DNA of 64,000 nt, taken from NCBI GenBank assembly GCA_000002445.1, contig CH464491.1:2368001-2432000 (forward strand), in the 5' to 3' direction. Under the pieces are notes generated by a model. That model saw nothing but the letters and a program-made list of their open reading frames with translations, was not told the DNA's origin and made no database searches. Shown in pieces: positions 5,774 to 58,454 of the stretch; position 1 is the stretch's first letter, and each line of letters opens with the position of its first letter. Made by a program: the position numbers and the translations under genes. This stretch comes from Trypanosoma brucei (lineage: Eukaryota).

Positions 5774-5800
5774 TATAGCCTATATATATACATATATATA
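5774..5800. repeat. (TA)n / TATATACA-like simple repeat
   Basis: tatatatatacatatatatatatatac, read directly. Confidence 0.85.
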
Positions 5801-7384
5801 TATATACATTTTTTTTGCATTAAAGTTCCCAATAGTTCCCCAAACGACCTTCCAACGCCCGCCCAGCCACTCACTCGATCACGCGTGTGTAAATTTTGAC
5901 CCTCGATTCGGTTTCCTCTCATGCCCCCTTTTGGTTGTCGCAATTCACGTATTTTCGTCACGCCGCAATCCATATATACAAACTGTCCCTTGTGGCCCGT
6001 GATCCCCATTCCGCAAATACCGAGAGTGGCTCATGGCTTTCCAACGTTACACGCTCCCCTTTTCCGCAAAAGCATGAGGACCCGTAGACGACACCACCTC
6101 GTAAAGCGACTGCAGCCTGCCGCCGGGCTCGGGTACCCTCGTCCCGGTTGCGCGGGGTTTGGTTGTTTTCGCTTTCAAACCTTCCTGGAGCAAGGGCAAA
6201 TGGGGAGCTTGGTTCAGCCTCTTTTTCGCAGCGTCGACTGTCAGCCGCGGCCCTTTCAACGCCGATTTAGCTATTGCGTGTTTTCCACCGCCTCGACCGT
6301 ATGGCCTGTTCACGCTGGCTCTCCACACCATGGCAGCTCTGTTCCCACTTCTAACTCGATCTTAACTAATACAAAACCGCTACTTTCCTCAACGACAATC
6401 GCTAATGGAGTGCTGGGGTCTCGTGCGCCAAAGCTTATCGGGGAAGGAGGCTAACCCCCACCCGTGATCACGACGCGCAGCCACCTACGCCGCCAAAAGT
6501 CGCAACGCTGTCAAATGCCTTCGCTTGGCCCTCGAAAATGAGGAATTGTGGATTGAAGTTACTGCTGCCGCAGATGCTTGGGGCGGCCGAAGCCGCCATC
6601 GGCGTTGCGCGCGGTCGCCGTTTGCACGATAGCATATGCATACGATGTACATGAACTGCAACCCGCTTCGGATGTTTTACACCCGCGGCGGCGTCGCGAA
6701 ATGGCAACGCCTAAGTATGGGGTCCCCCTGGACACTTGTGTGATCCGCCGCACCCCTTACCGAAACTGGTAAGAGGAAGGGAAGCTAGCTATTGCGAATG
6801 GGCCGCAGCGGCAGCGAGCAGCCGACCTCAGAACCAAAGGAAGTGCGCTTTAGACGGATAATCGGTGCTGTTTCTTACCGAAAGGGTGAACGGATGCGCG
6901 GTGGAGGAAGGGGGAAACTGCCAAAGAGGGCTTGTGCCACCGCAAAAACGAGTGCGTACGCGACGGGAATGGTAGACAGAGATTACGAAAGCGGGGGCAT
7001 GCCCGGCGATTGTCAAATGAGAGCGAAACACCGAGTAGCGGTGAACGGGGGCCCGTCAGCACTGACTTGTTTGCAGCCGTGACCGGTTGCCAAAATTGAG
7101 CGTTACGCAGAACATTTTTTTTTTGGAATTTTCTTCGTGCCTTCGTGGGAGTTTCCCCCAACTGGCGCGGCCATCAGCCATCACCGTAGAGCCCTGAGAT
7201 GCTATCGGTCTGGCGACTGTGGCAGAGTCTCCCTTTTTTATTCAGCCTAACACACCCTCTATAATTTTTGTTGTAGCTCCGCAGTTGAACGGAATACAGC
7301 AGATGGGGCGAGAAGCCCCCACCCCAGACTCTCCAAAAGATGTCAATTAGCAATCCTTTTGTTTTGATTTTTGTTATTCGTTTA

Positions 7385-9565: not shown

Positions 9566-9643
9566 CGTGATGGGACTGAACTCACTCGCTATCGTCTTTA
9601 TGGGTGCCGGTGGGTGTGAGTCGGGGTGCCTTCTTGCGCGGGA

Positions 9644-10828
9644 CTAGTACAGTTTAATGAACCTCTCAGCTTGACGGTAGTCCGTGATGGCCGCGTTATC
9701 AACAAGTACAGCCTGTGTGGTTAGTGGTCGTGGCGCATATACCTTCTTGACAATGTGCCAACTGCAGCGGTCTGACACCGCAAGTCTGGAGCATAGCGTG
9801 CTCCATCTCTTCTTTGTGGTATGGTCCAGGATCTGCTTACGCGTGGCTACCAACTTTTCCCTTCGGTGGGAGGGTCCGCATCCAGCGATCTCTTCATCGA
9901 GTTTCGCGAGCTCAGGTGTCCAATGTGGTGGCGTTGCTCTGCAGCCACGGGGGACGGAGACCTTCGTCGCAATGCGGATGGCGGAGCTCAATTTCTGTTC
10001 CATGGTGTTGACGTTCTTCTCTCTAACAATTTTCCTGCAGAGCTCGTCAACCTTGAGACGGAAATTCCTCCAGTCAGCTTTTAGCCATGCGTACATGGGC
10101 TTTCGAAGCCGCGGGCAACTCAGTGCATCTGTGCCGTCTCCAACGATAACGTCGAAAAATATGTGATGGTGATCGCTATCGGGAGAATACAGCGATGTCC
10201 ACGTGTACACTGTGCAATTCCTTGACAGTGTCACATCAGGGGTGGACTCCCCGTGGTGGCGCGCGTACCTGGTGCACTCACCAGTGTTGCAGACCAGAAA
10301 CTGGTTGTCAATGCACCACTGTGTGAGGGTTTCACCCTTGGTATTTGGTGGGCTCGCGCGATCCCATGCCAACGCGTGTGCGTTAGCGTCTGCACCGATG
10401 AGCTGGGCACCGTCAGTCATCAGAAGCGTATCTAGGTCAGTTGCCGTGAAGGTGTGTTTTGGTGGGATGTATGCCGACGTGACAGTCAGCGCTGTTCCAC
10501 GTGCAAGGTGAATTGTTGCATGCACTTGTTCAATGCGACCAACAACGGTCATACCGGTCTCGACTGGCAGGTCCTCCCTCACTAGTATTGATACACCACC
10601 TCCTTTGCAGTTACGAGCTATTCCGTGATGTTGGTAGCCAGCAACGCTAAAGCAAGCCGCCTCTCCAGGCGTCATCCTTGTCTCGCTCAACAGACAAAAG
10701 GCGATCCGCTCATCAACAAGGGTTTTGTGGAGTGCTAATCTCTTTCCTTGAGATAGCCCGGCGCAGTTCCACTGCATCCCGCGCAACGACGGGCCGGGAT
10801 TCTCTTCCACATCACCGGACAGCAGCAT
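9644..10828 (-). CDS. ingi ORF, N-terminal part: 2A-like peptide followed by apurinic/apyrimidinic-type endonuclease domain
   Basis: 394-aa ORF beginning MLLSGDVEENPGP, the 2A-like motif known at the N-terminus of trypanosome L1Tc/ingi. Endonuclease-like residues follow (LSETRMT..., SPDSDHHHI). Directly continues upstream of the RT ORF on the same strand. Confidence 0.8.
   Translation of the reverse strand: MLLSGDVEENPGPSLRGMQWNCAGLSQGKRLALHKTLVDERIAFCLLSETRMTPGEAACFSVAGYQHHGIARNCKGGGVSILVREDLPVETGMTVVGRIEQVHATIHLARGTALTVTSAYIPPKHTFTATDLDTLLMTDGAQLIGADANAHALAWDRASPPNTKGETLTQWCIDNQFLVCNTGECTRYARHHGESTPDVTLSRNCTVYTWTSLYSPDSDHHHIFFDVIVGDGTDALSCPRLRKPMYAWLKADWRNFRLKVDELCRKIVREKNVNTMEQKLSSAIRIATKVSVPRGCRATPPHWTPELAKLDEEIAGCGPSHRREKLVATRKQILDHTTKKRWSTLCSRLAVSDRCSWHIVKKVYAPRPLTTQAVLVDNAAITDYRQAERFIKLY
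10790..10813 (-). other. 2A-like self-processing peptide motif DVEENPGP at the N-terminus of the ingi polyprotein
   Basis: Residues 6-13 of the 9644..10828 minus-strand ORF read D-V-E-E-N-P-G-P, matching the D(V/I)ExNPGP 2A consensus. Confidence 0.7.
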
Positions 10829-12321
10829 CTTAGTGCGGGTGATACTGCTGATGGCACGCTAGCCACGTGCCCAGGGACCGACAAATGAAAAACGGTGTCA
10901 CAGCAAGACGCTGCTGATCCCTGTGCTGTATGATGCCGTAGCCGGAGCACAGCAGTGTTCCCCATGAAAGGAACGCTGCTGGCTCTTGGCTTCCCCCGAT
11001 GATACGGGGTACTGGACCCTGACACCACGTTGATGTGGCCGGCATCGCCAGGGTTCAAAACATTTTTTCCCAACCTAATGAAGGCTAGTCTTTTCGCTAG
11101 GCTCCTGCGTTGATTTGCCTTACTTTCACGGACTCTCTGTTCCGGCACCCATTGTTGTGGCAGCATGTCGCCCCTATTAGGGATTGTATTTGATGTCAAC
11201 GGGCGAACAACAGATGTAATGCCCTCGTTGGAGTCTTCAAGTGCCGTCCACTCCACCTTTCCCCTATTTACGGGGCTTAATTGCGCGTTCCTTTCAGTAA
11301 TTTGGGCCAACCAGCCCCCTTTTCTGAGGAAGTAAAAGGTTGTGGAGTTTTGAAGTACATTATCCTTTTCATATCGCGCCCCACTGCTACATTGGAGGTG
11401 ATCCAACTGTGGTAGCTGTTACGGTTCCGCACCACATTCTGAACGATCACCTCACAACGCCAGAAATAGGTAACGTTTGTGTGAAACAGCCTGTCTCCCA
11501 GTGTTGTGTGTCACATTAGGTCTTCACTGCCGGTGACCATTAAACTCTTCTCCAGTTGCCAAATTTAATATCAGCTTCTCTCACTCTCTTCCTTTGGGGC
11601 GCGCGAGTTCCGGCAGCAGGGCGACAATTCGAATCCGCTCAAAATAGCCGTGGACCTTTATTTCTCCCAGTAACTCCGACCTTCCCGTGCTCACGTTAGA
11701 GTTGTCGGGGAAAGGGAAATATGTCACAGCATGCTGTTCACTACTTTCAGGCACCATTGCAACAGTGACGCTTCCCAAATCTGTGTTTGTTCTCAGACTC
11801 GTAGCTACACCACTCCAAAACGAACGTGTGTTGACGCCCTGGTGCTTTTCTCTCTAAAATGGGCAAGCCCCGTGTGTTTGCAACCATAGGAGGTGAATGG
11901 CGCGGTTCCCATAATCTTTGCGATCACCTCCTGCGTGACGGAAAGGTCCAGCGCGCCCTCGCAGAGCATTGCCGGGAGGGTCACACGTTTCCGCCTGAGA
12001 GGTGTCCCTCCGTTTCGTTAAGCTCCGATGATGGGAGCGGGAACTGGGTTCTGCTTGGTATCCCCGCTGAGGGACAAGATAACCCCGTCAACAGAGCATA
12101 AAAGTGTGCACTTTCGCCGGCATTAGGCAGTGCTTAAAGTGGGCACCTTCCCGTGGTGCTCGACTGTTGCCGCACCTAGTTGCTCTGGTTGGCTGATGTC
12201 AGGTGCCACCGCTGTGCCAATGCTCGAAGGGGGGCCTTGTTCCTTACCTTGGAGGCCGACAGCCCCTGATACCACGATGGGACGACCGGTGTTCCCACGG
12301 TTGGTGTTGATGTTCTGCGTA

Positions 12322-45366: not shown

Positions 45367-46551
45367 GTGGGTAAAATGCTTGGAGCGAACCTTGGGATTA
45401 ACTTTCACACTGATGACGATCATGGTGATCATGGTGATCACGAGGGCCATGAGGGGCACGACATGGGGGGTTGCGCTCCAGCCGCAGGGTCGTACTCGAT
45501 GGGGCTTCACATTGCAGCCATTTTTATTCTCCTGATCGCGTCATTCCTTGGGACAGTTCTTCCCATTGCCGGGAACTATGTGCCACGATTCAAGCTGCCG
45601 CCGTTTCTTATTGTTGTTTCGAAGTGTATTTCCACAGGTGTTGTTATGTCAGTTGCCGTGTTAACACTGCTCAATCACAGCTTACACAGCTTCATGGAGA
45701 AGTGTATCCCACACGGGCTGAGTATGGAAGTGTACAGCGCTTTCGGCTTGCTGTTTATGCTGATCTCGGCTTTACTGATGCATTCATTCGACTCTGCCAT
45801 GGACCTCCTTCTTGAGGGTTGGGCGGTTCGTAAGGAAGAGGAGAAATTAGCCGACGGCGCACCGCAAGTGGCTGATAGTGTGCCGACGGCGGCGGCTCTT
45901 CCACCAACTCAATGCGGAATGAAGCGTTGCACGGCTCAACCAGGAGTATCATGTGAAACTAACGGCTGCTGCCAATCATCTCCGGGACCTGCGTACGGTG
46001 CTACCGGGTGCTGTGGAAGCCGTGGTGAAGCCGCTGCGCTGCTTACCGGTGCGCGGCGTGTTATGGCCCTAGCCTTAATGGAATTCGGTTTGGTGGTGCA
46101 CAGTATTTTTCTCGGTCTTTCCGTAGGTATTGCATCCGACTCGCGCACCAAAGTGCTGCTTGTGGCTCTTTCCTTCCATCAATTTTTTGAAGGCCTGGCT
46201 TTAGGGGCGCGGTTGGCGGAGGCGTCGCTGAAAGCCAAGTTGGAGTTATTTTTGGCCATCCTCTTTTCCATTTCTGTTCCTGTTGGTACGGCTATCGGTG
46301 CCGTTACCATGAGGGATGGCGGCAAAAGCATTACCGGCTCCAGTTACGTCACTATGAGCGCCATTGTCAATGCCATTGGTGCTGGTATTCTGCTTTACAT
46401 CGGTTTTGTCCTGCTTCTCGTTGATTTCCCAACGGATCTGCGCATATACGCGGGTGTCGGGACGCCGAATCGCTTTGTGAGACGCATTGCAATGTTTGTG
46501 GCCCTTTGGGTTGGCTTCGGTGTGATGGCGCTGCTGTCCAAGTGGCACTAG
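45367..46551 (+). CDS. ZIP-family (Zrt/Irt-like) divalent metal transporter, diverged paralogue with Cys-rich cytosolic loop
   Basis: 394 aa. Eight-TM ZIP layout with signature HSIFLGLSVG (TM4) and HQFFEGLALGARL (TM5). N-terminal His/Asp tract (HTDDDHGDHGDHEGHEGHD). The TM3-TM4 loop has CGMKRCTAQPGVSCETNGCCQSSPGPAYGATGCCGS. About 55-60% identical to the downstream array copies. Confidence 0.85.
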   Translation: MGKMLGANLGINFHTDDDHGDHGDHEGHEGHDMGGCAPAAGSYSMGLHIAAIFILLIASFLGTVLPIAGNYVPRFKLPPFLIVVSKCISTGVVMSVAVLTLLNHSLHSFMEKCIPHGLSMEVYSAFGLLFMLISALLMHSFDSAMDLLLEGWAVRKEEEKLADGAPQVADSVPTAAALPPTQCGMKRCTAQPGVSCETNGCCQSSPGPAYGATGCCGSRGEAAALLTGARRVMALALMEFGLVVHSIFLGLSVGIASDSRTKVLLVALSFHQFFEGLALGARLAEASLKAKLELFLAILFSISVPVGTAIGAVTMRDGGKSITGSSYVTMSAIVNAIGAGILLYIGFVLLLVDFPTDLRIYAGVGTPNRFVRRIAMFVALWVGFGVMALLSKWH

Positions 46552-48337
46552 GTAACGTAACTTTTTATTTACATTAATTTTTTTTCTTCACTCCCCCTAA
46601 CTTTGAGGAGTTGAATATGTTCGCACGTGGGTTAACACGTAACAAATAGTATCGCACGGAAAATGAACTCTTTACCGCGTGAGAGGCGTGTCGTGCTGAA
46701 GCGGACGCATCAGAGAAGAGGAGTAAATAAGCGAGGGATTGAGGGATGTTATGCTCACACGCTGTGTTCTGAGAGGTGGGGGAGAAGGTACTGAATTGGC
46801 ACTAAAATAGCGACGATGCGAAACAAGTAAGAAAATGAATAAGCAAAAGTTTTATGGGCAACGATTTTGAGAAAAAAAAATCAATTGCACAAATAGGCGG
46901 TAACCTCTTTATAGCTCTATCTTTTGAAACCCTATTCGCTAGTTTAGCGTTGCGGGGAAGCCGTCGTACTGATCCTAATCTCCTCACTTCCCTTCCTTCC
47001 CCTTCTATTTGTTTTTATTTACAAAATGATGGAAAGCGGGATGATTTGTTGTTCCTGGTGTGTATTCCTTTTTATTACTTATAATGATATGTTCATCATT
47101 GCTGTTATTAATTCGTTTTTGGTGTCTTATGCTATTTTTACATTTAGGGACTCTCATTTTATTTTTATTTTTTTCGAAGGTGTGTGAGTAACAACACATA
47201 CACAACTCGAGGGACTGAAGCATATCGGCGGGTATTGTATCAAGAAAAATTTTAAATTATTAACAAGCACAACACATCAGTGATGGGTCAAATGCAACGA
47301 AATCAGCGTGAAGGGTGAAATAAATAAATGAATCAAGACCTGAAGAAAACGAAATAGAAAGAGAACAGAAAAGGCAACGAATAAAATGGTGGAATGGAGA
47401 GTGAAAGTAACTTTTACAGAAAGGGAGAAGGGGAAAAGAAGAGATTAATAAAATAGGAAAATGTCGGAGGGAATCGAAGTGGCAGCACCTGAAAGAGACA
47501 GTTTAATATTAGCAGGGAAATCATTACTCATCCAATTCGCAACTCATATTCACGTGGTGAAGTGAGGCCGCGGCTTTGTTGCTATTTCTCTTACTCTTTG
47601 TGTACGTGTGTGTTTATTTTCTACGGCGTCGTTACCGGGGTTAATATCCAAAAGAAGGACTTAGTTTAACGTCATTCTAACAGATAAGTGTAATATTTGG
47701 GAGGAGACATTCTCGTATGTATTTTTGTTTTCCCCCCTTTTTGGCGTTATTTGGTGTCCGCTTGTTGGAGATTTATGTTCCTCATACATTTTTTTTTTTC
47801 AAAAAAAGCCTCAACTTGATAAATGCTCGTCCACGTGTGCCCTCCTTTGCCTTGCCTTATTTTTAACATATCTTTTTCAGTTATTCTTTGAGGTAATCTT
47901 CACAAAGTGGCACAGCAACAAAAAAAGATATATATGTATATATATCTAGCAACTGCATGATAATATTTGACATTGAAAGGTTTCAACCATCCTCAAGAGT
48001 ATATCTTCATACTTTTCCTTCACCCTTAATAAAAATCTCTCACATCCCGCTCCCCCCCGTTCCAAGGAAGAAAAAATTACACAAACACAGACACATTTCT
48101 TCACACAGCACCTACAGTCAAATAATAACAGAGCGGGGAGCTTCTAAGCAAAAGGTCCGACCAAGAAACAACCACAAAAAAAAAGGATTAAGAAATCGAA
48201 AAAATTGAAAAACATATAACTATACGACCAATTTAAAAAAAATAATAATAATTAAATTATGTAATAATAATAAAAATATATAACAACGATTCAGAAATAA
48301 AGAAAAAATATATAAAAAGCAACCAAAAACCAGGCGG

Positions 48338-48525
48338 TCGCCAGTGCTGTGTGTGGTGGGATGCTGCTGTACCTTGCTTTCTGCCTCATGTTGAGTGACT
48401 TCCCATCGGATATGCAGAAACATGCTGGGAAGGATAAGGTAAGGCGTTTCTTCAGATGCTTTGGGATGTTTGCGGCTCTTTGGCTTGGCGCTGCGTTGAT
48501 GGCCGTGTTAGGAAAATGGGTCTAA
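48338..48525 (+). pseudogene. Truncated 3' fragment (~62 codons) of a ZIP transporter gene marking the start of the tandem array
   Basis: caggcggtcgccagtgctgtgtgtggtgggatgctgctgtacc...tgggtctaa is identical to the 3' end of the copy at 49613..50797. It is fused upstream to unrelated AT-rich sequence and followed by the same 1087-bp intergenic unit. Confidence 0.8.
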
Positions 48526-49440
48526 GCACCCACTGTTCATGTGTGTGCCAATGGATTGCCCACTTCATTTTCTGTTTTCCTCGTACTCTTTTTCCAGCCC
48601 CCTTTTTCAGTTGTAATGATGCTCCCGCACGTGTGTTGCGTGGTCCGGTGAGCCATTGTGCCCTACCTGTTGCATGCGTTAGAGTTGTTCTTGAGGTGTG
48701 CTTGTGCATGTACATACATATATGTATATGTATATATACGTGTGTGTGTTTCTTGAGCTAGCGCCGAGTTGGGAGTGAGAGGAGTTGTGCTCTTCGTGTG
48801 TGCGTAGGTTTGAGCGTATGCGGACTGAGTGTCGGATGTTTAGCGGTGCGAAGCATAAGCAATTGCTCACGTGTTTGTATGCGTGTGTGTTGCGTACATG
48901 TTTCCAAACATCTACCCTGCCTTCAGGAGGGACCTGCACGAGTACATACATGAGCATATGTGCTGTGTTTACGCTTGTCCTTGATTTAGTTACAATATAC
49001 AACTGCGTACATCTACATTTTACTACTTTATGTTCGTTTGTTCATTTATTAGTATTTTTAAATAGCAATGCCCACCATCCTCGTAGTTACTCTACCGTGC
49101 TGGTGCGGGGGACGAAGCTGCAGACGCGTGGTGTACGAATATATGCATGCGTATGGATGTGTGTGCATGTGTTTCTGTGTGCGTCAATGCGCGTTTGAGT
49201 GTCTGCCTGCGCGTATATTTAAATAGTGATTTAGCGGATATCTGACTGTAGAGGGTACGACGGACGGGCTTATTTTCCACATGAGACTATTTCTTCCCCT
49301 GCTTTCTTTCTGTGCTGGTGCTGGTGCTGGTGTGTGTCTGTGTGTGCGCAGTTGTGGATGGGATGGTGGCAAATGTATCGCATTGCTGCTGTTCCCATCC
49401 CTTAGTGCCCCATTGTTTCTGCACGCTCTCGCTAAGCATT

Positions 49441-49520
49441 CCTTCTTACCCTTTTTGCCCATTGATTCTTTTTCTATGTTTGCCGTCCCTTTTTCACCTT
49501 TTTCTTTTTGGTGTGTGTAG
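49441..49520 (+). promoter_or_regulatory. Polypyrimidine tract plus downstream AG: candidate spliced-leader trans-splicing acceptor region for ZIP copy 1 (repeated before each array copy)
   Basis: ccttcttaccctttttgcccattgattctttttctatgtttgccgtccctttttcacctttttctttttgg then gtgtgtgtAG, ~95 nt upstream of the ATG. The same block recurs at 51713-51792, 53776-53860 and 55813-55897. Function inferred from kinetoplastid mRNA-processing rules, not shown by the sequence. Confidence 0.4.
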
Positions 49521-49612
49521 ATACCATAAAGTGACAGTCAGGTTTCGGTTGGTGCTGCCTTAGCTAATCTCAGCAAAAACACACTTCCTCTTTTTGTGAT
49601 ACAGTCAGAGCG

Positions 49613-50797
49613 ATGGCTAACGTTAATAACGAGACCACCGAATGTGGTGCATTGCTTTCGAATATCACTTCCCTACAGACGACGCTAACGTCTATGGGAT
49701 GCCAAGTGCCCGCCTTGCATCATCACACGCATGACCACGGCCACCATCACCATCATCATCATCATGACGATCACACCCACGGAGCGGACGACCACGAAGG
49801 TCACGGGCACAGTCACGGCGGGTGCGAAAGTGGTCATGGCACGTATTCCATTGGACTGCATGTTGTGGCGATCTTTGTTGTGTTGATTGCGTCGTTTCTG
49901 GGCACGCTGATACCGATAATCGGAAAGTACGTGCCGGCACTGCGGCTTCCTCCGTTTGTGTTTGTCCTTGGCAAGTGCATTGCAGCTGGAGTGCTACTGT
50001 CAGTGTCGACTATCCACATGATTAATGAAGCTGTAGCGCAGCTACAGGAAGATTGTGTTCCGGAGTCGTTTCGCGAATCATATGAGGCATATGCATTTCT
50101 GTTTGCTGTGGCTGGAGCGTTGCTGTTGCACATGGTGGACGTCATTGTTGACGCACGTGTGACAAACAAGAGCGATTCCAGCACCAACAAACCTGAGGGT
50201 CAACCCGATGCCGAAGAAGCTCAAGCGGCCCCGGCTGCTCTTGATGCGTACGATGGTCATCACTGCCACTACGCTGTCGGCATGCCACAGTCGAGGACCA
50301 GACGCCTCGTCTCTGCAATGTTTATGGAGTTTGCGGTAACTGTGCACAGTGTGTTCATTGGGCTGGCAGTCGGTATCGCAAGGGATGCGGAGACTAAAAC
50401 TTTACTTGTGGCTCTGGCATTTCATCAGATGTTGGAGGGCCTTGCTCTGGGCGCGCGTCTGGTGGATGCAGAGTTGAGCTTGAAGCTTGAAATGCTGTTT
50501 GCACTACTCTTCTCTGTCTCTGCGCCCCTGGGCACCGCAATTGCCGTTGGCACGATTGCGATTTGGAATGTGTCGATGGTAGGAACCGCGTTCGTGATTA
50601 CACAGGCGGTCGCCAGTGCTGTGTGTGGTGGGATGCTGCTGTACCTTGCTTTCTGCCTCATGTTGAGTGACTTCCCATCGGATATGCAGAAACATGCTGG
50701 GAAGGATAAGGTAAGGCGTTTCTTCAGATGCTTTGGGATGTTTGCGGCTCTTTGGCTTGGCGCTGCGTTGATGGCCGTGTTAGGAAAATGGGTCTAA
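49613..50797 (+). CDS. ZIP-family metal transporter, array copy 1 (type A, long His tract)
   Basis: 394 aa. N-terminal HHHTHDHGHHHHHHHHDDHTHGADDHEGHGHSHGG. TM4 HSVFIGLAVG, TM5 HQMLEGLALGARL. TM3-TM4 loop with DGHHCHY. Confidence 0.9.
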   Translation: MANVNNETTECGALLSNITSLQTTLTSMGCQVPALHHHTHDHGHHHHHHHHDDHTHGADDHEGHGHSHGGCESGHGTYSIGLHVVAIFVVLIASFLGTLIPIIGKYVPALRLPPFVFVLGKCIAAGVLLSVSTIHMINEAVAQLQEDCVPESFRESYEAYAFLFAVAGALLLHMVDVIVDARVTNKSDSSTNKPEGQPDAEEAQAAPAALDAYDGHHCHYAVGMPQSRTRRLVSAMFMEFAVTVHSVFIGLAVGIARDAETKTLLVALAFHQMLEGLALGARLVDAELSLKLEMLFALLFSVSAPLGTAIAVGTIAIWNVSMVGTAFVITQAVASAVCGGMLLYLAFCLMLSDFPSDMQKHAGKDKVRRFFRCFGMFAALWLGAALMAVLGKWV

Positions 50798-51884
50798 GCA
50801 CCCACTGTTCATGTGTGTGCCAATGGATTGCCCACTTCATTTTCTGTTTTCCTCGTACTCTTTTTCCAGCCCCCTTTTTCAGTTGTAATGATGCTCCCGC
50901 ACGTGTGTTGCGTGGTCCGGTGAGCCATTGTGCCCTACCTGTTGCATGCGTTAGAGTTGTTCTTGAGGTGTGCTTGTGCATGTACATACATATATGTATA
51001 TGTATATATACGTGTGTGTGTTTCTTGAGCTAGCGCCGAGTTGGGAGTGAGAGGAGTTGTGCTCTTCGTGTGTGCGTAGGTTTGAGCGTATGCGGACTGA
51101 GTGTCGGATGTTTAGCGGTGCGAAGCATAAGCAATTGCTCACGTGTTTGTATGCGTGTGTGTTGCGTACATGTTTCCAAACATCTACCCTGCCTTCAGGA
51201 GGGACCTGCACGAGTACATACATGAGCATATGTGCTGTGTTTACGCTTGTCCTTGATTTAGTTACAATATACAACTGCGTACATCTACATTTTACTACTT
51301 TATGTTCGTTTGTTCATTTATTAGTATTTTTAAATAGCAATGCCCACCATCCTCGTAGTTACTCTACCGTGCTGGTGCGGGGGACGAAGCTGCAGACGCG
51401 TGGTGTACGAATATATGCATGCGTATGGATGTGTGTGCATGTGTTTCTGTGTGCGTCAATGCGCGTTTGAGTGTCTGCCTGCGCGTATATTTAAATAGTG
51501 ATTTAGCGGATATCTGACTGTAGAGGGTACGACGGACGGGCTTATTTTCCACATGAGACTATTTCTTCCCCTGCTTTCTTTCTGTGCTGGTGCTGGTGCT
51601 GGTGTGTGTCTGTGTGTGCGCAGTTGTGGATGGGATGGTGGCAAATGTATCGCATTGCTGCTGTTCCCATCCCTTAGTGCCCCATTGTTTCTGCACGCTC
51701 TCGCTAAGCATTCCTTCTTACCCTTTTTGCCCATTGATTCTTTTTCTATGTTTGTCGTCCCTTTTTCACCTTTTTCTTTTTGGTGTGTGTAGATACCATA
51801 AAGTGACAGTCAGGTTTCGGTTGGTGCTGCCTTAGCTAATCTCAGCAAAAACACACTTCCTCTTTTTGTGATACAGTCAGAGCG

Positions 51885-53069
51885 ATGGCTAACGTTAATA
51901 ACGAGACCACCGAATGTGGTGCATTGCTTTCGAATATCACTTCCCTACAGACGACGCTAACGTCTATGGGATGCCAAGTGCCCGCCTTGCATCATCACAC
52001 GCATGACCACGGCCACCATCACCATCATCATCATCATGACGATCACACCCACGGAGCGGACGACCACGAAGGTCACGGGCACAGTCACGGCGGGTGTGAA
52101 AGTGGTCATGGCACGTATTCCATTGGACTGCATGTTGTGGCGATCTTTGTTGTGTTGATTGCGTCGTTTCTGGGCACGCTGATACCGATAATCGGAAAGT
52201 ACGTGCCGGCACTGCGGCTTCCTCCGTTTGTGTTTGTCCTTGGCAAGTGCATTGCAGCTGGAGTGCTACTGTCAGTGTCGACTATCCACATGATTAATGA
52301 AGCTGTAGCGCAGCTACAGGAAGATTGTGTTCCGGAGTCGTTTCGCGAATCATATGAGGCATATGCATTTCTGTTTGCTGTGGCTGGAGCGTTGCTGTTG
52401 CACATGGTGGACGTCATTGTTGACGCACGTGTGACAAACAAGAGCGATTCCAGCACCAACAAACCTGAGGGTCAACCCGATGCCGAAGAAGCTCAAGCGG
52501 CCCCGGCCGCTCTTGATGCGTACGATGGTCATCACTGCCACTACGCTGTCGGCATGCCACAGTCGAGGACCAGACGCCTCGTCTCTGCAATGTTTATGGA
52601 GTTTGCGGTAACTGTGCACAGTGTGTTCATTGGGCTGGCAGTCGGTATCGCAAGGGATGCGGAGACCAAAACTTTACTTGTGGCTCTGGTTTTTCATCAG
52701 ATGTTGGAGGGCCTTGCTCTGGGCGCGCGTCTGGTGGATGCAGAGTTGAGCTTGAAGCTTGAAATGCTGTTTGCACTACTCTTCTCTGTCTCTGCGCCCC
52801 TGGGCACCGCAATTGCCGTTGGCACGATTGCGATTTGGAATGTGTCGATGGTAGGAACCGCGTTCGTGATTACACAGGCGGTCACCAGTGCTGTGTGTGG
52901 TGGGATGCTGCTGTACCTTGCTTTCTGCCTCATGTTGAGTGACTTCCCATCGGATATGCAGAAACATGCTGGGAAGGATAAGGTAAGGCGTTTCTTCAGA
53001 TGCTTTGGGATGTTTGCGGCTCTTTGGTTTGGCGCTGCGTTAATGGCCTTTATCGGAAAGTGGATCTAA
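51885..53069 (+). CDS. ZIP-family metal transporter, array copy 2 (type A 5' part, type-B-like 3' end)
   Basis: 394 aa, >98% identical to copy 1. C-terminus reads WFGAALMAFIGKWI like copies 3/4, not WLGAALMAVLGKWV as in copy 1. Confidence 0.9.
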   Translation: MANVNNETTECGALLSNITSLQTTLTSMGCQVPALHHHTHDHGHHHHHHHHDDHTHGADDHEGHGHSHGGCESGHGTYSIGLHVVAIFVVLIASFLGTLIPIIGKYVPALRLPPFVFVLGKCIAAGVLLSVSTIHMINEAVAQLQEDCVPESFRESYEAYAFLFAVAGALLLHMVDVIVDARVTNKSDSSTNKPEGQPDAEEAQAAPAALDAYDGHHCHYAVGMPQSRTRRLVSAMFMEFAVTVHSVFIGLAVGIARDAETKTLLVALVFHQMLEGLALGARLVDAELSLKLEMLFALLFSVSAPLGTAIAVGTIAIWNVSMVGTAFVITQAVTSAVCGGMLLYLAFCLMLSDFPSDMQKHAGKDKVRRFFRCFGMFAALWFGAALMAFIGKWI

Positions 53070-53954
53070 GCACCCACTGTTCATGTGTGTGCCAATGGAT
53101 TGCCCACTTCATTTTCTGTTTTCCTCGTACTCTTTTTCCAGCCCCCTTTTTCAGTTGTAATGATGCTCCCGCACGTGTGTTGCGTGGTCCGGTGAGCCAT
53201 TGTGCCCTACCTGTTGCATGCGTTAGAGTTGTTCTTGAGGTGTGCTTGTGCATGTACATACATATATGTATATGTATATATACGTGTGTGTGCTTAGTAC
53301 ATGTTTCCAAACATCTACCCTGCCTTCAGGAGGGACCCGCACGAGTACATACATGAGCAAATGTGCTCCGTTTTTTTGTTTTATAACATACAACTGTACT
53401 ACAAAGTTCAACTCAGTATACCTAAATTTCAGTGTTTTTTTTATTGTCAACGTTTTTTTCTCGTTTTAGCAATGCCCACCATCCTCGTTGTTACTCTACC
53501 GTGCTGGTGCGGGGGACGAAGCTGCAGACGCGTGGTGTACGAATATATGCATGCGTATGGATGTGTGTGCATGTGTTTCTGTGTGCGTCAATGCGCGTTT
53601 GAGTGTCTGCCTGCGCGTATATTTAAATAGTGATTTAGCGGATATCTGACTGTAGAGGGTACGACGGACGGGCTTATTTTTTACATCATATTTGTAGTCG
53701 TTTTTGTCGTTTTTCAATTATTTTTTGTTTTTTAAAAATATTCTTACAACATTTGTGTCTATGTACGCTCTCGCTAAGCATTCCTTCTTACCCTTTTTGC
53801 CCATTGATTCTTTTTCTATGTTTGCCGTCCCTTTTTCACCTTTTTCTTTTTGGTGTGTGTAGATACCATAAAGTGACAGTCAGGTTTCGGTTGGTGCTGC
53901 CTTAGCTAATCTCAGCAAAAACACACTTCCTCTTTTTGTGATACAGTCAGAGCG

Positions 53955-55106
53955 ATGGCTAACGTTAATAACGAGACCACCGAATGTGGTGCATTGCTTT
54001 CGAATATCACTTCCCTACAGACGACGCTAACGTCTATGGGATGCCAAGTGCCCGTCTTGCATCATCATCATCGTGACAATCACACCCACGGAGTGGTCGA
54101 CGATGGAATTGATGGAGACACTCACGGCGGGTGTGAAAGTGGTCATGGCACGTATTCCATTGGACTGCATGTTGTGGCGATCTTTGTTGTGTTGATTGCG
54201 TCGTTTCTGGGCACGCTGATACCGATAATCGGAAAGTACGTGCCGGCACTGCGGCTTCCTCCGTTTGCGCTTGTCCTTGGCAAGTGCATTGCAGCTGGAG
54301 TGCTACTGTCAGTGTCGACTATCCACATGATTAATGAATCTATTTTACAGCTACAGGAAGATTGTGTTCCGGAGTCGTTTCGCGAATCATATGAGGCATA
54401 TGCATTTCTGTTTGCTGTGGCTGGAGCGTTGTTAATGCAGATGGTGGACGTAATTGTGGATAAATATGTGACAAATAAGAGCGATTCCAGCACCAACAAA
54501 CCTGAGGGTCAACCCGATGCCGAAGAAGCTCAAGCGGCCCCGGCTGCTCTTGATGCGTACGATGGTCATCACTGCCACTACGCTGTCGGCATGCCACAGT
54601 CGAGGACTAAACGTCTCGTCGCTGCAATGTTTATGGAGTTTGCGGTAACTGTGCACAGTGTGTTTGTCGGGCTGGCAGTCGGTATCGCAAGGGATGCGGA
54701 GACCAAAACTTTACTTGTGGCTCTGGTTTTTCATCAGATGTTGGAGGGCCTTGCTCTGGGTGCGCGTCTGGTGGATGCAGAGTTGAGCTTGAAGCTTGAA
54801 ATGCTGTTTGCACTACTCTTCTCTGTCTCTGCGCCCCTGGGCACCGCAATTGCCGTTGGCACGATTGCGATTTGGAATGTGTCGATGGTAGGAACCGCGT
54901 TCGTGATTACACAGGCGGTCACCAGTGCTGTGTGTGGTGGGATGCTGCTGTACCTTGCTTTCTGCCTCATGTTGAGTGACTTCCCATCGGATATGCAGAA
55001 ACATGCTGGGAAGGATAAGGTAAGGCGTTTCTTCAGATGCTTTGGGATGTTTGCGGCTCTTTGGTTTGGCGCTGCGTTAATGGCCTTTATCGGAAAGTGG
55101 ATCTAA
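53955..55106 (+). CDS. ZIP-family metal transporter, array copy 3 (type B, short His tract)
   Basis: 383 aa. N-terminal HHHHRDNHTHGVVDDGIDGDTHGG replaces the long His tract. The rest is collinear with copies 1/2. Confidence 0.9.
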   Translation: MANVNNETTECGALLSNITSLQTTLTSMGCQVPVLHHHHRDNHTHGVVDDGIDGDTHGGCESGHGTYSIGLHVVAIFVVLIASFLGTLIPIIGKYVPALRLPPFALVLGKCIAAGVLLSVSTIHMINESILQLQEDCVPESFRESYEAYAFLFAVAGALLMQMVDVIVDKYVTNKSDSSTNKPEGQPDAEEAQAAPAALDAYDGHHCHYAVGMPQSRTKRLVAAMFMEFAVTVHSVFVGLAVGIARDAETKTLLVALVFHQMLEGLALGARLVDAELSLKLEMLFALLFSVSAPLGTAIAVGTIAIWNVSMVGTAFVITQAVTSAVCGGMLLYLAFCLMLSDFPSDMQKHAGKDKVRRFFRCFGMFAALWFGAALMAFIGKWI

Positions 55107-55991
55107 GCACCCACTGTTCATGTGTGTGCCAATGGATTGCCCACTTCATTTTCTGTTTTCCTCGTACTCTTTTTCCAGCCCCCTTTTTCAGTTGTAATGA
55201 TGCTCCCGCACGTGTGTTGCGTGGTCCGGTGAGCCATTGTGCCCTACCTGTTGCATGCGTTAGAGTTGTTCTTGAGGTGTGCTTGTGCATGTACATACAT
55301 ATATGTATATGTATATATACGTGTGTGTGCTTAGTACATGTTTCCAAACATCTACCCTGCCTTCAGGAGGGACCTGCACGAGTACATACATGAGCAAATG
55401 TGCTCCGTTTTTTTGTTTTATAACATACAACTGTACTACAAAGTTCAACTCAGTATACCTAAATTTCAGTGTTTTTTTTATTGTCAACGTTTTTTTCTCG
55501 TTTTAGTAATGCCCACCATCCTCGTTGTTACTCTACCGTGCTGGTGCGGGGGACGAAGCTGCAGACGCGTGGTGTACGAATATATGCATGCGTATGGATG
55601 TGTGTGCATGTGTTTCTGTGTGCGTCAATGCGCGTTTGAGTGTCTGCCTGCGCGTATATTTAAATAGTGATTTAGCGGATATCTGACTGTAGAGGGTACG
55701 ACGGACGGGCTTATTTTTTACATCATATTTGTAGTCGTTTTTGTCGTTTTTCAATTATTTTTTGTTTTTTAAAAATATTCTTACAACATTTGTGTCTATG
55801 TACGCTCTCGCTAAGCATTCCTTCTTACCCTTTTTGCCCATTGATTCTTTTTCTATGTTTGCCGTCCCTTTTTCACCTTTTTCTTTTTGGTGTGTGTAGA
55901 TACCATAAAGTGACAGTCAGGTTTCGGTTGGTGCTGCCTTAGCTAATCTCAGCAAAAACACACTTCCTCTTTTTGTGATACAGTCAGAGCG

Positions 55992-57155
55992 ATGGCTAAC
56001 GTTAATAACGAGACCACCGAATGTGGTGCATTGCTTTCGAATATCACTTCCCTACAGACGACGCTAACGTCTATGGGATGCCAAGTGCCCGCCTTGCATC
56101 ATCATCATCGTGACAATCACACCCACGGAGTGGTCGACGATGGAATTGATGGAGACACTCACGGCGGGTGTGAAAGTGGTCATGGCACGTATTCCATTGG
56201 ACTGCATGTTGTGGCGATCTTTGTTGTGTTGATTGCGTCGTTTCTGGGCACGCTGATACCGATAATCGGAAAGTACGTGCCGGCACTGCGGCTTCCTCCG
56301 TTTGCGCTTGTCCTTGGCAAGTGCATTGCAGCTGGAGTGCTACTGTCAGTGTCGACGATCCACATGATTAATGAATCTATTTTACAGCTACAGGAAGATT
56401 GTGTTCCGGAGTCGTTTCGCGAATCATATGAGGCATATGCATTTCTGTTTGCTGTGGCTGGAGCGTTGCTGTTGCACATGGTGGACGTCCTTTCTGGTTT
56501 TTGTGTTCGTCGGGATGAAATGGTTTATAGTGATACTTCGGCAGTTGTTCCGCATGAGGTTATCGATGCCGAAGAAGCTCAAGCGGCCCCGGCTGCTCTT
56601 GATGCGTACGATGGTCATCACTGCCACTACGCTGTCGGCATGCCACAGTCGAGGACTAAACGTCTTTTTTCTGCAATGTTTATGGAGTTTGCGGTAACTG
56701 TGCACAGTGTGTTTGTCGGGCTGGCAGTCGGTATCGCAAGGGATGCGGAGACCAAAACTTTACTTGTGGCTCTGGTTTTTCATCAGATGTTGGAGGGCCT
56801 TGCTCTGGGCGCGCGTCTGGTGGATGCAGAGTTGAGCTTGAAGCTTGAAATGCTGTTTGCACTACTCTTCTCTGTCTCTGCGCCCCTGGGCACCGCAATT
56901 GCCGTTGGCACGATTGCGATTTGGAATGTGTCGATGGTAGGAACCGCGTTCGTGATTACACAGGCGGTCACCAGTGCTGTGTGTGGTGGGATGCTGCTGT
57001 ACCTTGCTTTCTGCCTCATGTTGAGTGACTTCCCATCGGATATGCAGAAACATGCTGGGAAGGATAAGGTAAGACGTTTCTTCAGATGCTTTGGGATGTT
57101 TGCGGCTCTTTGGCTTGGCGCTGCGTTAATGGCCTTTATTGGAAAATGGATCTAA
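55992..57155 (+). CDS. ZIP-family metal transporter, array copy 4 (type B with replaced TM3-TM4 loop segment)
   Basis: 387 aa. As copy 3, but loop segment VIVDKYVTNKSDSSTNKPEGQPD is replaced by LSGFCVRRDEMVYSDTSAVVPHEVID (77 nt vs 65 nt, in frame). Confidence 0.9.
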   Translation: MANVNNETTECGALLSNITSLQTTLTSMGCQVPALHHHHRDNHTHGVVDDGIDGDTHGGCESGHGTYSIGLHVVAIFVVLIASFLGTLIPIIGKYVPALRLPPFALVLGKCIAAGVLLSVSTIHMINESILQLQEDCVPESFRESYEAYAFLFAVAGALLLHMVDVLSGFCVRRDEMVYSDTSAVVPHEVIDAEEAQAAPAALDAYDGHHCHYAVGMPQSRTKRLFSAMFMEFAVTVHSVFVGLAVGIARDAETKTLLVALVFHQMLEGLALGARLVDAELSLKLEMLFALLFSVSAPLGTAIAVGTIAIWNVSMVGTAFVITQAVTSAVCGGMLLYLAFCLMLSDFPSDMQKHAGKDKVRRFFRCFGMFAALWLGAALMAFIGKWI

Positions 57156-57297
57156 ATCTAAATTGTTTTGTGAATTTGTGTATATTTTAAATTCCTGTTT
57201 TTTTCTTTGTCTTTTTCTTTGTCTTTTTCTATGTTGCTTTTTTTTTTTGTTTTTCTTTTTTGTTTTTTTTTTAATGTTAGGTTTTTTATTGTCCACT

Positions 57298-57639
57298 ATG
57301 TCCCGTGTCCCTATTAGCGAAGAACAGGCACAACAGTTGCTGATGAAGCAACAAGCGCAGGAGGAAAAGCAGGAAGCAATGAGAGAACAGAAAGAAAGTA
57401 TTTTGCGCGCCGTTGTGTCTGCTGAAGGAAGGGAACGCCTGACCCGACTGAGTCAGGTGAAAGCTGATCGTGCAACAGCTGTGGAATCTTATATCATACA
57501 AGCTGTTCGCCAAGGCAAGCTACAACCGCCCGTTTCTGATGAAATGGTGCGGGAAATTCTTGAACAAATGTCTTCTCAGTCAGCGGAATCCAAGAGCAAT
57601 ATTGTGTTTGCCCGGAAACGCATGGATGACGATTGGTGA
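57298..57639 (+). CDS. PDCD5: PDCD5/TFAR19-family protein (programmed cell death protein 5 homologue)
   Basis: Start at Met 57298 inside a longer low-complexity ORF. ILRAVVSAEGRERLTRLSQVKADRATAVESYIIQAVRQGKLQPPVSDEMVREILEQMS matches remembered PDCD5 ([50 protein letters not shown]). About 113 aa. Confidence 0.75.
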   Translation: MSRVPISEEQAQQLLMKQQAQEEKQEAMREQKESILRAVVSAEGRERLTRLSQVKADRATAVESYIIQAVRQGKLQPPVSDEMVREILEQMSSQSAESKSNIVFARKRMDDDW

Positions 57640-58454
57640 TTGGTTGTTTGGTCGTTTGGTTGGTGGCGTACATTTCTGTTTTATTAGGATTTTAATTTTG
57701 TAGTCTTTCTTAAGGTTTGTGTCCCCTATGTCTGGGTTTCATTTTTTTTTTTTACCCGACGAACTGTGCTGATGTCTCATGCTTTTGGGAATTCTTTTAG
57801 GTAATTATTCTGCTGATTTATTAGATAATGTTCCACGTCGTTGTTTCCCTCGTCCCTTACCACTTCTATTCTCTGCATCCCTCCATTGTGTTTCGTGGTT
57901 ATTCACTTATTTGCGTGTTAAGGTGGTAGTAGTTTTTTTTTCGGTTTGTTTTGTGGTTCAGGGTGTTGCCTGCATCCGTGCACTGGTGTGATGTGATTCG
58001 CGTGTGGTTGTGGGCTTGTGGATTGAAGGTGTGACAGAGTGGTGTTTTGCGTCCCGCTGCTTTTTATGTGTCTGCGTTGGACCATGCAGCTCTTTTATTT
58101 CTTGTGGTGGGGGCTGATGTCGGAAGGAAGCTGCCGTTTCTCGTTTCGAACCGGGCTTTGAGAGAGGCCGGGGCGCTGGTGTGGAATGAAGTGTTCTGGT
58201 GTTCTTTGGGACCTGCAAGATACCAAGAGGAGTGCGGCTGTGTTAATTCGCACTTAATTATTACTGTTTCTTAAGCTAGTTTTGTACAGGGTCACTTGCT
58301 GTTGCGTTTAAACGGTATTTGAACTCTCCTTTTCTGATCGTACATATTCATGGGAAGGGGAGGGGCGCTGAGAGAATCGTATTTGAGGTAATAGAAAGTG
58401 GTGAAGTGAAGGAAGCAGGAAAATACAGCGGAAAAACAGAGAGAGCGCTTAATA

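What the first reader, a model, noticed from the sequence alone, without database searches (positions are those of the whole stretch)
56488..56564. In-frame segmental replacement in the TM3-TM4 cytosolic loop of ZIP copy 4
Across ~1.1 kb copy 4 is nearly identical to copy 3. The exception is a 65-nt block (54441-54505, VIVDKYVTNKSDSSTNKPEGQPD), which is swapped for an unrelated 77-nt block (LSGFCVRRDEMVYSDTSAVVPHEVID). The reading frame is preserved and identity resumes at DAEEAQAAPA. This sharp patch looks like a micro gene conversion or template switch from an unidentified donor. The TM3-TM4 loop is the classic variable/regulatory loop of ZIP proteins.
Basis: seen in the sequence. Interest (0 to 1): 0.55.

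Follow-up and report, generated by a model that had tools for sequence, protein, structure and literature searches.

The report
Last-copy loop variant, trypanosome zinc transporter
The last gene of the Trypanosoma brucei ZIP3 zinc-transporter array really does carry a sharply bounded, in-frame alternative stretch at the start of its main cytosolic loop. It is a stable feature of that one gene in three subspecies, best read as an unhomogenised island in a gene-conversion mosaic rather than a recent patch or an assembly error, and it is of modest interest.

Summary
The window is T. brucei TREU927 chromosome 11, and the array is TbZIP3 (Tb927.11.9000-9030) preceded by ZIP3a. Copy 4 (55992-57155) differs from copy 3 at 68 alignment columns, 53 of them inside 56488-56564. 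Identity is 31% inside the block and 98.7% outside. The block is 12 nt longer and in frame.

It is not an assembly chimera. The same block sits in the terminal copy, and only there, in T. equiperdum (100%) and T. b. gambiense (98.7%).

No donor exists in the 64 kb window on either strand. The block peptide weakly resembles the same post-TM3 segment of the neighbouring paralogue ZIP3a (z about 5.7, protein level only).

The whole array is a patchwork of small variant islands. These islands flip between orthologous copies in the three subspecies, but this block and a second private patch (56666-56669) never move.

Copy 4 also ends the repeat exactly at its stop codon. It therefore lacks the ZIP3 3'UTR and has no ZNK1 GU-repeat motifs downstream, against 9, 5 and 5 for copies 1-3.

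My best reading is an old paralogue-specific segment that escaped homogenisation. It marks a terminal ZIP3 isoform that probably escapes zinc-dependent control. Any functional effect is inferred, not shown.

The parts
56490..56563 (+). Block B: the copy-4-specific segment (74 nt, LSGFCVRRDEMVYSDTSAVVPHEVI, residues 167-191), covering the cytosolic extension of TM3 and the first part of the TM3-TM4 loop
   Evidence: Alignments; boundaries and counts; found only in terminal copies of three genomes; residues 167-182 predicted helical and 183-217 with pLDDT below 50
56666..56669 (+). Second patch private to the terminal copy (CTTTTTTCT against CTCGTC[G/T]CT; RLFS against RLVA/RLVS), at the loop/TM4 junction about 100 nt downstream of block B
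   Evidence: The only other columns where terminal copies of the three genomes share no state with any other copy
55992..57155 (+). Copy 4, the terminal ZIP3 gene (387 aa; EAN79856.1 / XP_828968.1; Tb927.11.9030 by its order in the array)
   Evidence: Exact sequence look-up; Pfam Zip at 154 bits; gene naming from PMC13569496
53955..55106 (+). Copy 3 (383 aa; EAN79855.1). It carries block A' at 54453-54514 plus its own small patch from about 54432
51885..53069 (+). Copy 2 (394 aa; EAN79854.1), with block A at 52416-52477
49613..50797 (+). Copy 1 (394 aa; EAN79853.1), with block A at 50144-50205 (IVDARVTNKSDSSTNKPEGQP)
45376..46551 (+). ZIP3a, the diverged paralogue upstream of the array (Tb927.11.8990). 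Its segment 45808-45882 (LLEGWAVRKEEEKLADGAPQVADSV) is the only sequence found with significant similarity to the block B peptide
   Evidence: naming from PMC13569496
57156..57297 (+). Unique downstream flank of copy 4. Repeat homology stops at the stop codon. A T-rich tract follows, and the next gene (PDCD5-like, PF01984) starts at 57298. There are no GU-repeat motifs
   Evidence: gene call in the T. equiperdum locus

Best explanation
Block B is a real, heritable feature of the last gene of the TbZIP3 tandem array. The array evolves by frequent short gene-conversion tracts, which keep the copies about 99% alike but leave small islands of older divergence. Block B is the largest and most diverged of these islands. 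It is a paralogue-specific version of the segment that continues helix TM3 into the cytosol and opens the TM3-TM4 loop. Conversion has not overwritten it, either because a 74-nt stretch with no homology stops heteroduplex formation at its edges, or because selection keeps it, or both. Its effect (inferred) is to give the terminal isoform a juxtamembrane helix four residues longer. That helix is more hydrophobic and has no lysine, whereas the array version is hydrophilic and rich in Lys, Ser and Thr. The same gene ends the repeat at its stop codon, so it lacks the ZIP3 3'UTR that carries the ZNK1 GU-repeat elements. The likely result is a ZIP3 isoform expressed largely independently of zinc-triggered mRNA decay and possibly regulated differently as a protein. 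Shown here: the sequence facts, conservation in three subspecies, the mosaic pattern, the absence of motifs and the predicted helix. Inferred: the age and direction of the event, and every functional consequence.
For: The block is sharp and in frame. It is 100% identical in T. equiperdum and 98.7% identical in T. b. gambiense, and is found only in the terminal copy of each array, including the T. equiperdum locus with at least 6 copies. Seventeen variant islands were tabulated. Many flip state between orthologous copies of the three subspecies (for example alignment columns 152-157, 756-759 and 818-819 in the terminal copy), while block B and the 708-712 patch stay fixed there. The neighbouring copy-3 patch contains several codon changes that leave the amino acid unchanged (read from the alignment), which suggests old haplotypes rather than new mutation. 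The block peptide aligns without gaps to the segment just after TM3 of ZIP3a (z about 5.7; 0/2000 and 2/3000 shuffles). Third-position identity there is random at 7/25, as expected for ancient divergence. Repeat homology ends at stop codon 57155. GU-repeat hits downstream are 9, 5, 5 and 0 for copies 1-4. PMC13569496 reports that the Lister 427 array ends in two 'diverged paralogs', ZIP3b-c, whose 3'UTRs lack or have fewer GU motifs and which respond less than 2-fold to ZNK1 loss. AlphaFold models put the first 16 residues of block B and the first 12 of block A in the TM3 helix, with the remainder disordered. Block A has 2 Lys, 5 Ser/Thr and GRAVY -1.24. Block B has 0 Lys and GRAVY +0.23. Jackson 2007 (PMC1855330) lists this array (Tb113, cation transporter) as one of 'mixed dynamics'.
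Against: The ZIP3a similarity is short (25 aa, 7 identities). It is seen only at protein level and is significant only at about 0.01-0.02 after correcting for 24 comparisons. It is absent against T. vivax ZIP3a, so it could reflect shared constraint on an amphipathic helix. Neither block is clearly closer to ZIP3 of T. vivax, T. cruzi or T. theileri, so which version is ancestral is unresolved. The syntenic T. vivax array has four near-identical copies and no terminal variant, so the variant is not old enough, or not retained widely enough, to be seen there. The three T. brucei-group genomes are very close relatives, so persistence across them is weak evidence for selection. In the T. b. gambiense assembly the terminal copy carries two 1-nt deletions in TM4. 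No expression or protein data specific to copy 4 were found.
Confidence: 0.55

Rival explanations
1. A short ectopic gene conversion or replication template switch copied about 74 nt from a donor outside the array into copy 4. The donor could be another ZIP paralogue, such as a ZIP3a-like gene or Tb927.5.4140, or unrelated DNA.
For: The boundaries are sharp and the flanks are identical. There is no residual nucleotide similarity to block A. There is weak protein similarity to T. brucei ZIP3a but not to T. vivax ZIP3a, which would fit a donor of ZIP3a type within the T. brucei lineage. The array demonstrably undergoes short conversions.
Against: There is no donor on either strand of the 64 kb window, which includes ZIP3a itself. 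The best matches are 12-13 nt, at chance level. In-register nucleotide identity to ZIP3a is only 32/75, with random third positions, and local alignment finds nothing. So ZIP3a as it now stands is not a recent donor. A second private patch 100 nt away and a private downstream flank suggest a distinct gene lineage rather than a single insertion event.
Confidence: 0.25
2. The block arose in place. The ordinary block A sequence was scrambled in copy 4 by indels, compensated frameshifts or very fast positive selection on the loop.
For: The start of the loop is the most variable coding stretch of the array. Three haplotypes (A, A', B) occur within about 100 nt. Loops of ZIP proteins evolve fast, and they cannot be aligned between trypanosome species. 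Part of the block is predicted to be disordered.
Against: The nucleotide sequences of blocks A and B are no more alike than shuffles in any register or strand, so a frameshift pair cannot explain it. None of the other five reading frames of block B gives an open translation resembling block A's peptide (read by eye). About 50 substitutions in 74 nt, synonymous sites included, alongside flanks with about 1% divergence cannot come from point mutation alone.
Confidence: 0.1
3. The block is an assembly or sequencing artefact: a chimeric join in a collapsed repeat array.
For: The TREU927 array is probably collapsed. It has 5 genes against 16 reported in the Lister 427 assembly (PMC13569496) and at least 6 copies in the T. 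equiperdum locus.
Against: The identical block sits at the same place in the T. equiperdum assembly (GCA_003543875.1), and the T. b. gambiense DAL972 assembly has it with one substitution. The reading frame is kept, and the gene is an annotated protein in all three.
Confidence: 0.02

Closest known systems
TbZIP3 array and its flanking paralogues ZIP3a-c (Tb927.11.8990-9030; Tb427_110096500-110098000), described in PMC13569496 (Nucleic Acids Res 2026)
   Same: It is the same locus: the four window proteins match the TREU927 entries exactly. The paper reports that the Lister 427 array ends in two diverged paralogues whose 3'UTRs lack or have fewer GU-repeat motifs and respond weakly to ZNK1. In the window, copies 3 and 4 are the shorter 383 and 387 aa types, and copy 4 has no GU motif.
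   Different: In the text I read, the paper treats Tb927.11.9000-9030 together as ZIP3 and does not describe the loop block. That copy 4 corresponds to ZIP3c is my inference, because I could not obtain the 427 sequences.
Concerted evolution with 'mixed dynamics' in T. brucei tandem gene arrays (Jackson 2007, PMC1855330; array Tb113, cation transporter)
   Same: The array is homogenised by gene conversion, has atypical copies at its edges, and shows remodelled intergenic sequence next to the divergent copy. Here the terminal copy has private patches and a private downstream flank.
   Different: Jackson singles out the divergent 5' copy (ZIP3a). The 3'-terminal copy with a single sharply bounded loop island inside an otherwise homogenised coding sequence is not mentioned in the passages I read.
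Regulatory TM3-TM4 loops of ZIP transporters (Arabidopsis IRT1, yeast Zrt1, mammalian ZIP4), from my own knowledge and not tested here
   Same: The position in the protein is the same: the variable cytosolic loop after TM3, which carries a His cluster. In those proteins, loop lysines and phosphorylatable residues mediate metal-triggered ubiquitination and endocytosis. Block A carries 2 Lys and 5 Ser/Thr, and block B has no Lys.
   Different: There is no evidence that trypanosome ZIP3 is regulated in this way. The His cluster (DGHHCHY) lies outside the block and is identical in all copies. The known zinc control of TbZIP3 acts at the mRNA level.

Membership tests
ZIP (Zrt/Irt-like protein) metal transporters, Pfam PF02535 | Pfam Zip model matched above the gathering score over the whole domain | tested here: met
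   Copy 4 scores 154.2 bits (cut-off 35.1), profile positions 2-322 of 323. Copies 1 and 3 and ZIP3a also match.
ZIP (Zrt/Irt-like protein) metal transporters, Pfam PF02535 | Eight transmembrane helices with a long variable cytosolic loop between TM3 and TM4 | tested here: met
   The AlphaFold model has eight long helices (69-95, 103-133, 149-182, 221-248, 251-278, 283-311, 318-355, 362-386) and a low-confidence loop at 183-217. The copy 1 model has the same layout. Which side of the membrane the loop faces is assumed from the family.
ZIP (Zrt/Irt-like protein) metal transporters, Pfam PF02535 | Conserved metal-site residues in TM4 and TM5 (H..S and HQ..EG motifs) | tested here: met
   H238, S239, H264, Q265, E268 and G269 are invariant in a 35-sequence alignment, and they are identical in all four copies.
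TbZIP3 array of T. brucei chromosome 11 | Sequence identity to the annotated TREU927 genes and a syntenic position | tested here: met
   Exact protein matches to EAN79853-79856. The flanking BCCIP, DnaJ and DHHC genes are shared with T. equiperdum and T. b. gambiense, and BCCIP and DnaJ also follow the T. vivax array.
ZNK1-controlled ZIP3 transcripts (PMC13569496) | Several GUGUGUG(U/C) motifs in the 3'UTR | tested here: not met
   There are 0 hits in 57156-58454 downstream of copy 4, against 9, 5 and 5 downstream of copies 1-3. Homology to the ZIP3 3'UTR stops at the stop codon. The actual response of this transcript to zinc was not testable.
Gene-conversion tract from an identifiable donor | A donor sequence highly similar to the tract exists elsewhere | tested here: not met
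   There is none in the 64 kb window on either strand, and none in 21 kb of the T. equiperdum or T. b. gambiense loci apart from the orthologous block. A genome-wide search was not possible with these tools. The peptide search failed its own positive control.
Gene-conversion mosaic / concerted evolution in a tandem array | Copies nearly identical apart from discrete islands whose states are reshuffled among copies and among related genomes | tested here: met
   The haplotype table of 17 islands across 11 copies shows a/b states recombined differently in the three subspecies.
Ubiquitin- or phosphorylation-regulated ZIP loops (IRT1 / Zrt1 / ZIP4 type) | Loop lysines or Ser/Thr residues required for metal-induced turnover | not testable with these tools
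   Only composition is known: block A has 2 Lys and 5 Ser/Thr, block B has 0 Lys and 4 Ser/Thr. No experimental data were found.

The most novel reading that the evidence does not exclude
Block B, together with the loss of the ZNK1-responsive 3'UTR, defines a functionally distinct 'constitutive' ZIP3 isoform. This would be a zinc importer that escapes both zinc-triggered mRNA decay and a lysine- or phosphorylation-dependent protein turnover signal carried by the ordinary loop. Selection would hold the block against the array's otherwise pervasive homogenisation.
Probability: 0.2. Interest if true: 0.45.

Novelty: new member of a known kind. Interest (0 to 1): 0.25.

Why it matters
The 74-nt block is a unique tag inside an otherwise nearly identical gene array. 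It allows copy-specific read mapping, PCR or editing of the terminal ZIP3 gene, which is otherwise hard in this locus. If the terminal isoform really is exempt from ZNK1 control and has a different loop, it would add a second layer to the newly described zinc homeostasis circuit of trypanosomes: a basal importer alongside an inducible one. As an evolutionary observation it is an ordinary example of incomplete concerted evolution at the edge of a trypanosome tandem array.

Tried and rejected
1. I looked for a donor in the window with blastn-short (word 7, both strands) and tblastn of the peptide. Only chance matches of 13 nt or less turned up.

2. I tested whether block B is an inversion or frameshift of block A. 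Reverse-complement and local or global nucleotide alignments were no better than shuffles, and the six-frame translations show no relation.

A 40-aa peptide then returned 'no candidate', even though P0001 and P0070 contain it exactly.

4. I tried to polarise the change with outgroups. Neither block scores significantly against the loops of T. vivax, T. cruzi, T. theileri, T. grayi, T. rangeli or T. melophagium; the only nominal hits were block A against T. cruzi ZIP3 and T. melophagium (p = 0.04 and 0.02, uncorrected for 24 comparisons). No T. congolense protein was returned by either full-length search.

5. I asked whether T. vivax shows the same terminal variant. It does not: its four copies are nearly identical.

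6. No solved structure is related by sequence.

7. The supplementary files of PMC13569496, which could map ZIP3b and ZIP3c to 927 genes, are not held.

8. PMC6105827 concerns other zinc transporters (ZnT type) and is irrelevant here.

Full report
**What the region is.** The window's four long repeated ORFs (49613-50797, 51885-53069, 53955-55106 and 55992-57155) match exactly the Trypanosoma brucei brucei TREU927 proteins EAN79853 to EAN79856, all annotated 'cation transporter, putative'. Each matches Pfam Zip (PF02535) far above threshold. A recent paper (PMC13569496) names this chromosome 11 cluster TbZIP3 (Tb927.11.9000-9030). It calls the diverged upstream paralogue ZIP3a (Tb927.11.8990; here 45376-46551). 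The paper shows that ZIP3 mRNA is destroyed in zinc-replete cells by the nuclease ZNK1, acting through GU-repeat motifs in the ZIP3 3'UTR. It also states that the better assembled Lister 427 array has 16 genes and ends in two 'diverged paralogs', ZIP3b and ZIP3c, whose 3'UTRs lack or have fewer GU motifs. Jackson 2007 (PMC1855330) lists the same array (Tb113) among T. brucei tandem arrays evolving by gene conversion with 'mixed dynamics'.

**Checking the observation.** Alignment of the copies confirms the finding.
- Copy 4 departs from copies 1-2 at 56490 and rejoins them after 56563. That is 74 nt against 62 nt in the other copies, so +12 nt and in frame.
- The array version IVDARVTNKSDSSTNKPEGQP (IVDKYV... 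in copy 3) is replaced by LSGFCVRRDEMVYSDTSAVVPHEVI.
Identity is 31% inside and 98.7% outside.
- At nucleotide level the two versions are no more alike than shuffled sequence, in either orientation. The block is therefore not an inversion, and not a frameshifted reading of the same DNA.
Immediately upstream of the block, copy 4 matches copies 1-2. Copy 3 has its own small dense patch there.

**Not an artefact.** I fetched the homologous loci of T. equiperdum (L001) and T. b. gambiense DAL972 (L002) through exact protein look-ups. Block B is 100% identical in T. equiperdum and 98.7% identical in T. b. gambiense. In each genome it occurs once, in the last copy of the array next to the same single-copy genes. 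The T. equiperdum locus shows at least six copies, and five of them carry the ordinary block.

**Search for a donor.** Nothing in the 64 kb window, on either strand, matches the block beyond 12-13 nt, which is chance level. No tool here could search a T. brucei genome at DNA level. A 40-aa peptide search of the large protein database failed to recover even the proteins known to contain the peptide, so it is uninformative. The one positive result is at protein level. The block peptide aligns without gaps to the segment just after TM3 of the neighbouring paralogue ZIP3a:

    block B:  VLSGFCVRRDEMVYSDTSAVVPHEV
    ZIP3a:    LLEGWAVRKEEEKLADGAPQVADSV

The Smith-Waterman score is 33-34, against 17 +/- 3 for shuffles, and 0/2000 and 2/3000 shuffles reach it. 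After correction for 24 comparisons this is about 0.01-0.02. In that register nucleotide identity is 32/75, with third positions at the random level of 7/25. An unguided nucleotide alignment finds nothing. The resemblance is absent against T. vivax ZIP3a and the other trypanosome homologues. I read this as a sign of old common ancestry or of shared constraint on the helix that continues TM3. It is not a trace of recent copying.

**The array is a mosaic.** I tabulated 17 variant islands across 11 copies from the three genomes.
- Most islands have two states, and these are combined differently in orthologous copies of the three subspecies. For example, the terminal copy has state b at alignment columns 756-759 and 818-819 in TREU927 and T. 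b. gambiense, but state a in T. equiperdum. Short conversion tracts have therefore moved between copies since these very close relatives separated.
- Only two islands are private to the terminal copy and fixed in all three genomes: block B and a 4-nt patch at 56666-56669 (RLFS against RLVS/RLVA) at the loop/TM4 junction. The 102 nt between them are identical in every copy.
- Several islands include codon changes that do not alter the amino acid (read from the alignment). This fits old haplotypes being shuffled rather than new mutations.
- The simplest account is that the terminal gene is a distinct, older paralogue that has been largely homogenised. A stretch with no residual homology is hard for conversion to cross, so it remains as an island.
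- The reverse account is an old ectopic conversion into this copy. It remains possible, and I give it about a quarter of the probability.
- The syntenic T. vivax locus has ZIP3a followed by four almost identical ZIP3 genes and no terminal variant. The variant is therefore either specific to the T. brucei lineage or was lost in T. vivax.

**Context that gives the block possible meaning.** Repeat homology ends exactly at the stop codon of copy 4 (57155). What follows is a T-rich tract, and the next gene starts at 57298. Copy 4 therefore has none of the ZIP3 3'UTR. The ZNK1 motif GTGTGTG[TC] occurs 9, 5, 5 and 0 times downstream of copies 1 to 4. This matches the paper's description of ZIP3b and ZIP3c at the end of the 427 array. 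The equation of copy 4 with ZIP3c is my inference.

AlphaFold models of copies 4 and 1 (mean pLDDT 76 and 78) compare as follows:

| Model | TM3 helix | Block residues in the helix | Loop with pLDDT below 50 |
|---|---|---|---|
| Copy 4 (block B) | 149-182 | first 16 | 183-217 |
| Copy 1 (block A) | 157-189 | first 12 | 190-224 |

The four extra codons therefore lengthen a predicted cytosolic extension of TM3, at moderate confidence. Composition changes sharply: block A has 2 Lys, 5 Ser/Thr and GRAVY -1.24, while block B has no Lys, one Cys, one Tyr, one His and GRAVY +0.23. The His cluster DGHHCHY lies outside the block and is unchanged.

**Most likely mechanism.** I commit to the following, with the last steps inferred. 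The terminal gene encodes a working ZIP3 isoform with a different juxtamembrane segment. Its transcript escapes ZNK1-mediated decay because it lacks the GU-repeat 3'UTR. From knowledge of IRT1, Zrt1 and ZIP4, where loop lysines and phosphosites drive metal-induced turnover, losing the Lys/Ser-rich stretch could also change protein-level regulation. None of this was tested. In the T. b. gambiense assembly the terminal copy carries two single-base deletions in TM4. If these are real, the isoform is dispensable in that subspecies.

**Verdict.** The feature is an instance of a known phenomenon, incomplete concerted evolution at the edge of a trypanosome tandem array, in an annotated gene of a locus that has been studied. 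Its practical value is as a unique tag for the terminal ZIP3 gene and as a lead for isoform-specific regulation. I score interest at 0.25.

Noticed in passing
window 54432-54470 (copy 3): Copy 3 has its own dense micro-patch at the end of TM3 and start of the loop (LLMQMVDVIVDKYV against LLLHMVDVIVDARV). There are about 10 substitutions in about 40 nt, several of them synonymous. The third T. b. gambiense copy shares the patch, but the 383-aa T. equiperdum copies do not. Three haplotypes therefore exist at the same short stretch.
   Followed up: partly
window 46552-48525: Between ZIP3a and copy 1 lies about 1.8 kb of A/T-rich, non-coding-looking sequence. It ends abruptly at 48331 in a 195-nt fragment identical to the 3' end of copy 1's coding sequence (48331-48525), followed by a full ZIP3 3' flank. 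The T. b. gambiense locus has the same fragment (L002 1957-2151). It may be a truncated first copy or the upstream boundary of the array.
   Followed up: partly
window 50798-58454: Hits to the ZNK1 GU-repeat motif GTGTGTG[TC] decline along the array: 9 downstream of copy 1, 5 after copy 2, 5 after copy 3 and 0 after copy 4. The intergenic unit after copies 2 and 3 is about 200 nt shorter (885 against 1087 nt).
   Followed up: partly
L002 about 10730 and 10775 (T. b. gambiense DAL972 terminal ZIP3 copy): There are two single-base deletions 46 nt apart inside TM4, giving a frameshifted gene 1162 nt long. NCBI labels the product 'LOW QUALITY PROTEIN'. This is either sequencing error or pseudogenisation of the block-B copy in this subspecies.
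   Followed up: partly
window 49718-49810 against 54060-54120 / 56097-56157: The N-terminal His-rich stretch differs between the 394-aa copies 1-2 and the shorter copies 3-4. There is a 33-nt indel plus a cluster of substitutions (HHHTHDHGHHHHHHHHDDHTHGADDHEGHGHSH against HHHHRDNHTHGVVDDGIDGDTH). This is another island of old divergence, in a likely extracellular metal-binding region.
   Followed up: no
L001 (T. equiperdum) 1-11164 against window 48331-57155: The T. equiperdum locus holds at least six ZIP3 copies in 11 kb, two of which were not called as genes. TREU927 has four. With the 16 genes reported for Lister 427, this suggests the reference array is collapsed or that copy number varies.
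   Followed up: partly
L003 7658-16415 (T. vivax): The syntenic T. vivax locus has ZIP3a followed by four ZIP3 genes. They differ only by a few SNPs and one 6-nt GA-repeat indel, so homogenisation is far more complete than in T. brucei.
   Followed up: yes
window 8831-8930: A run of 100 N, which is an assembly gap in the reference chromosome and unrelated to the array.
   Followed up: no
tool behaviour: The word-indexed protein search returned 'no candidate' for a 40-aa query that is an exact substring of proteins it had returned earlier (P0001, P0070). Negative results from that tool for short queries should not be trusted.
   Followed up: no
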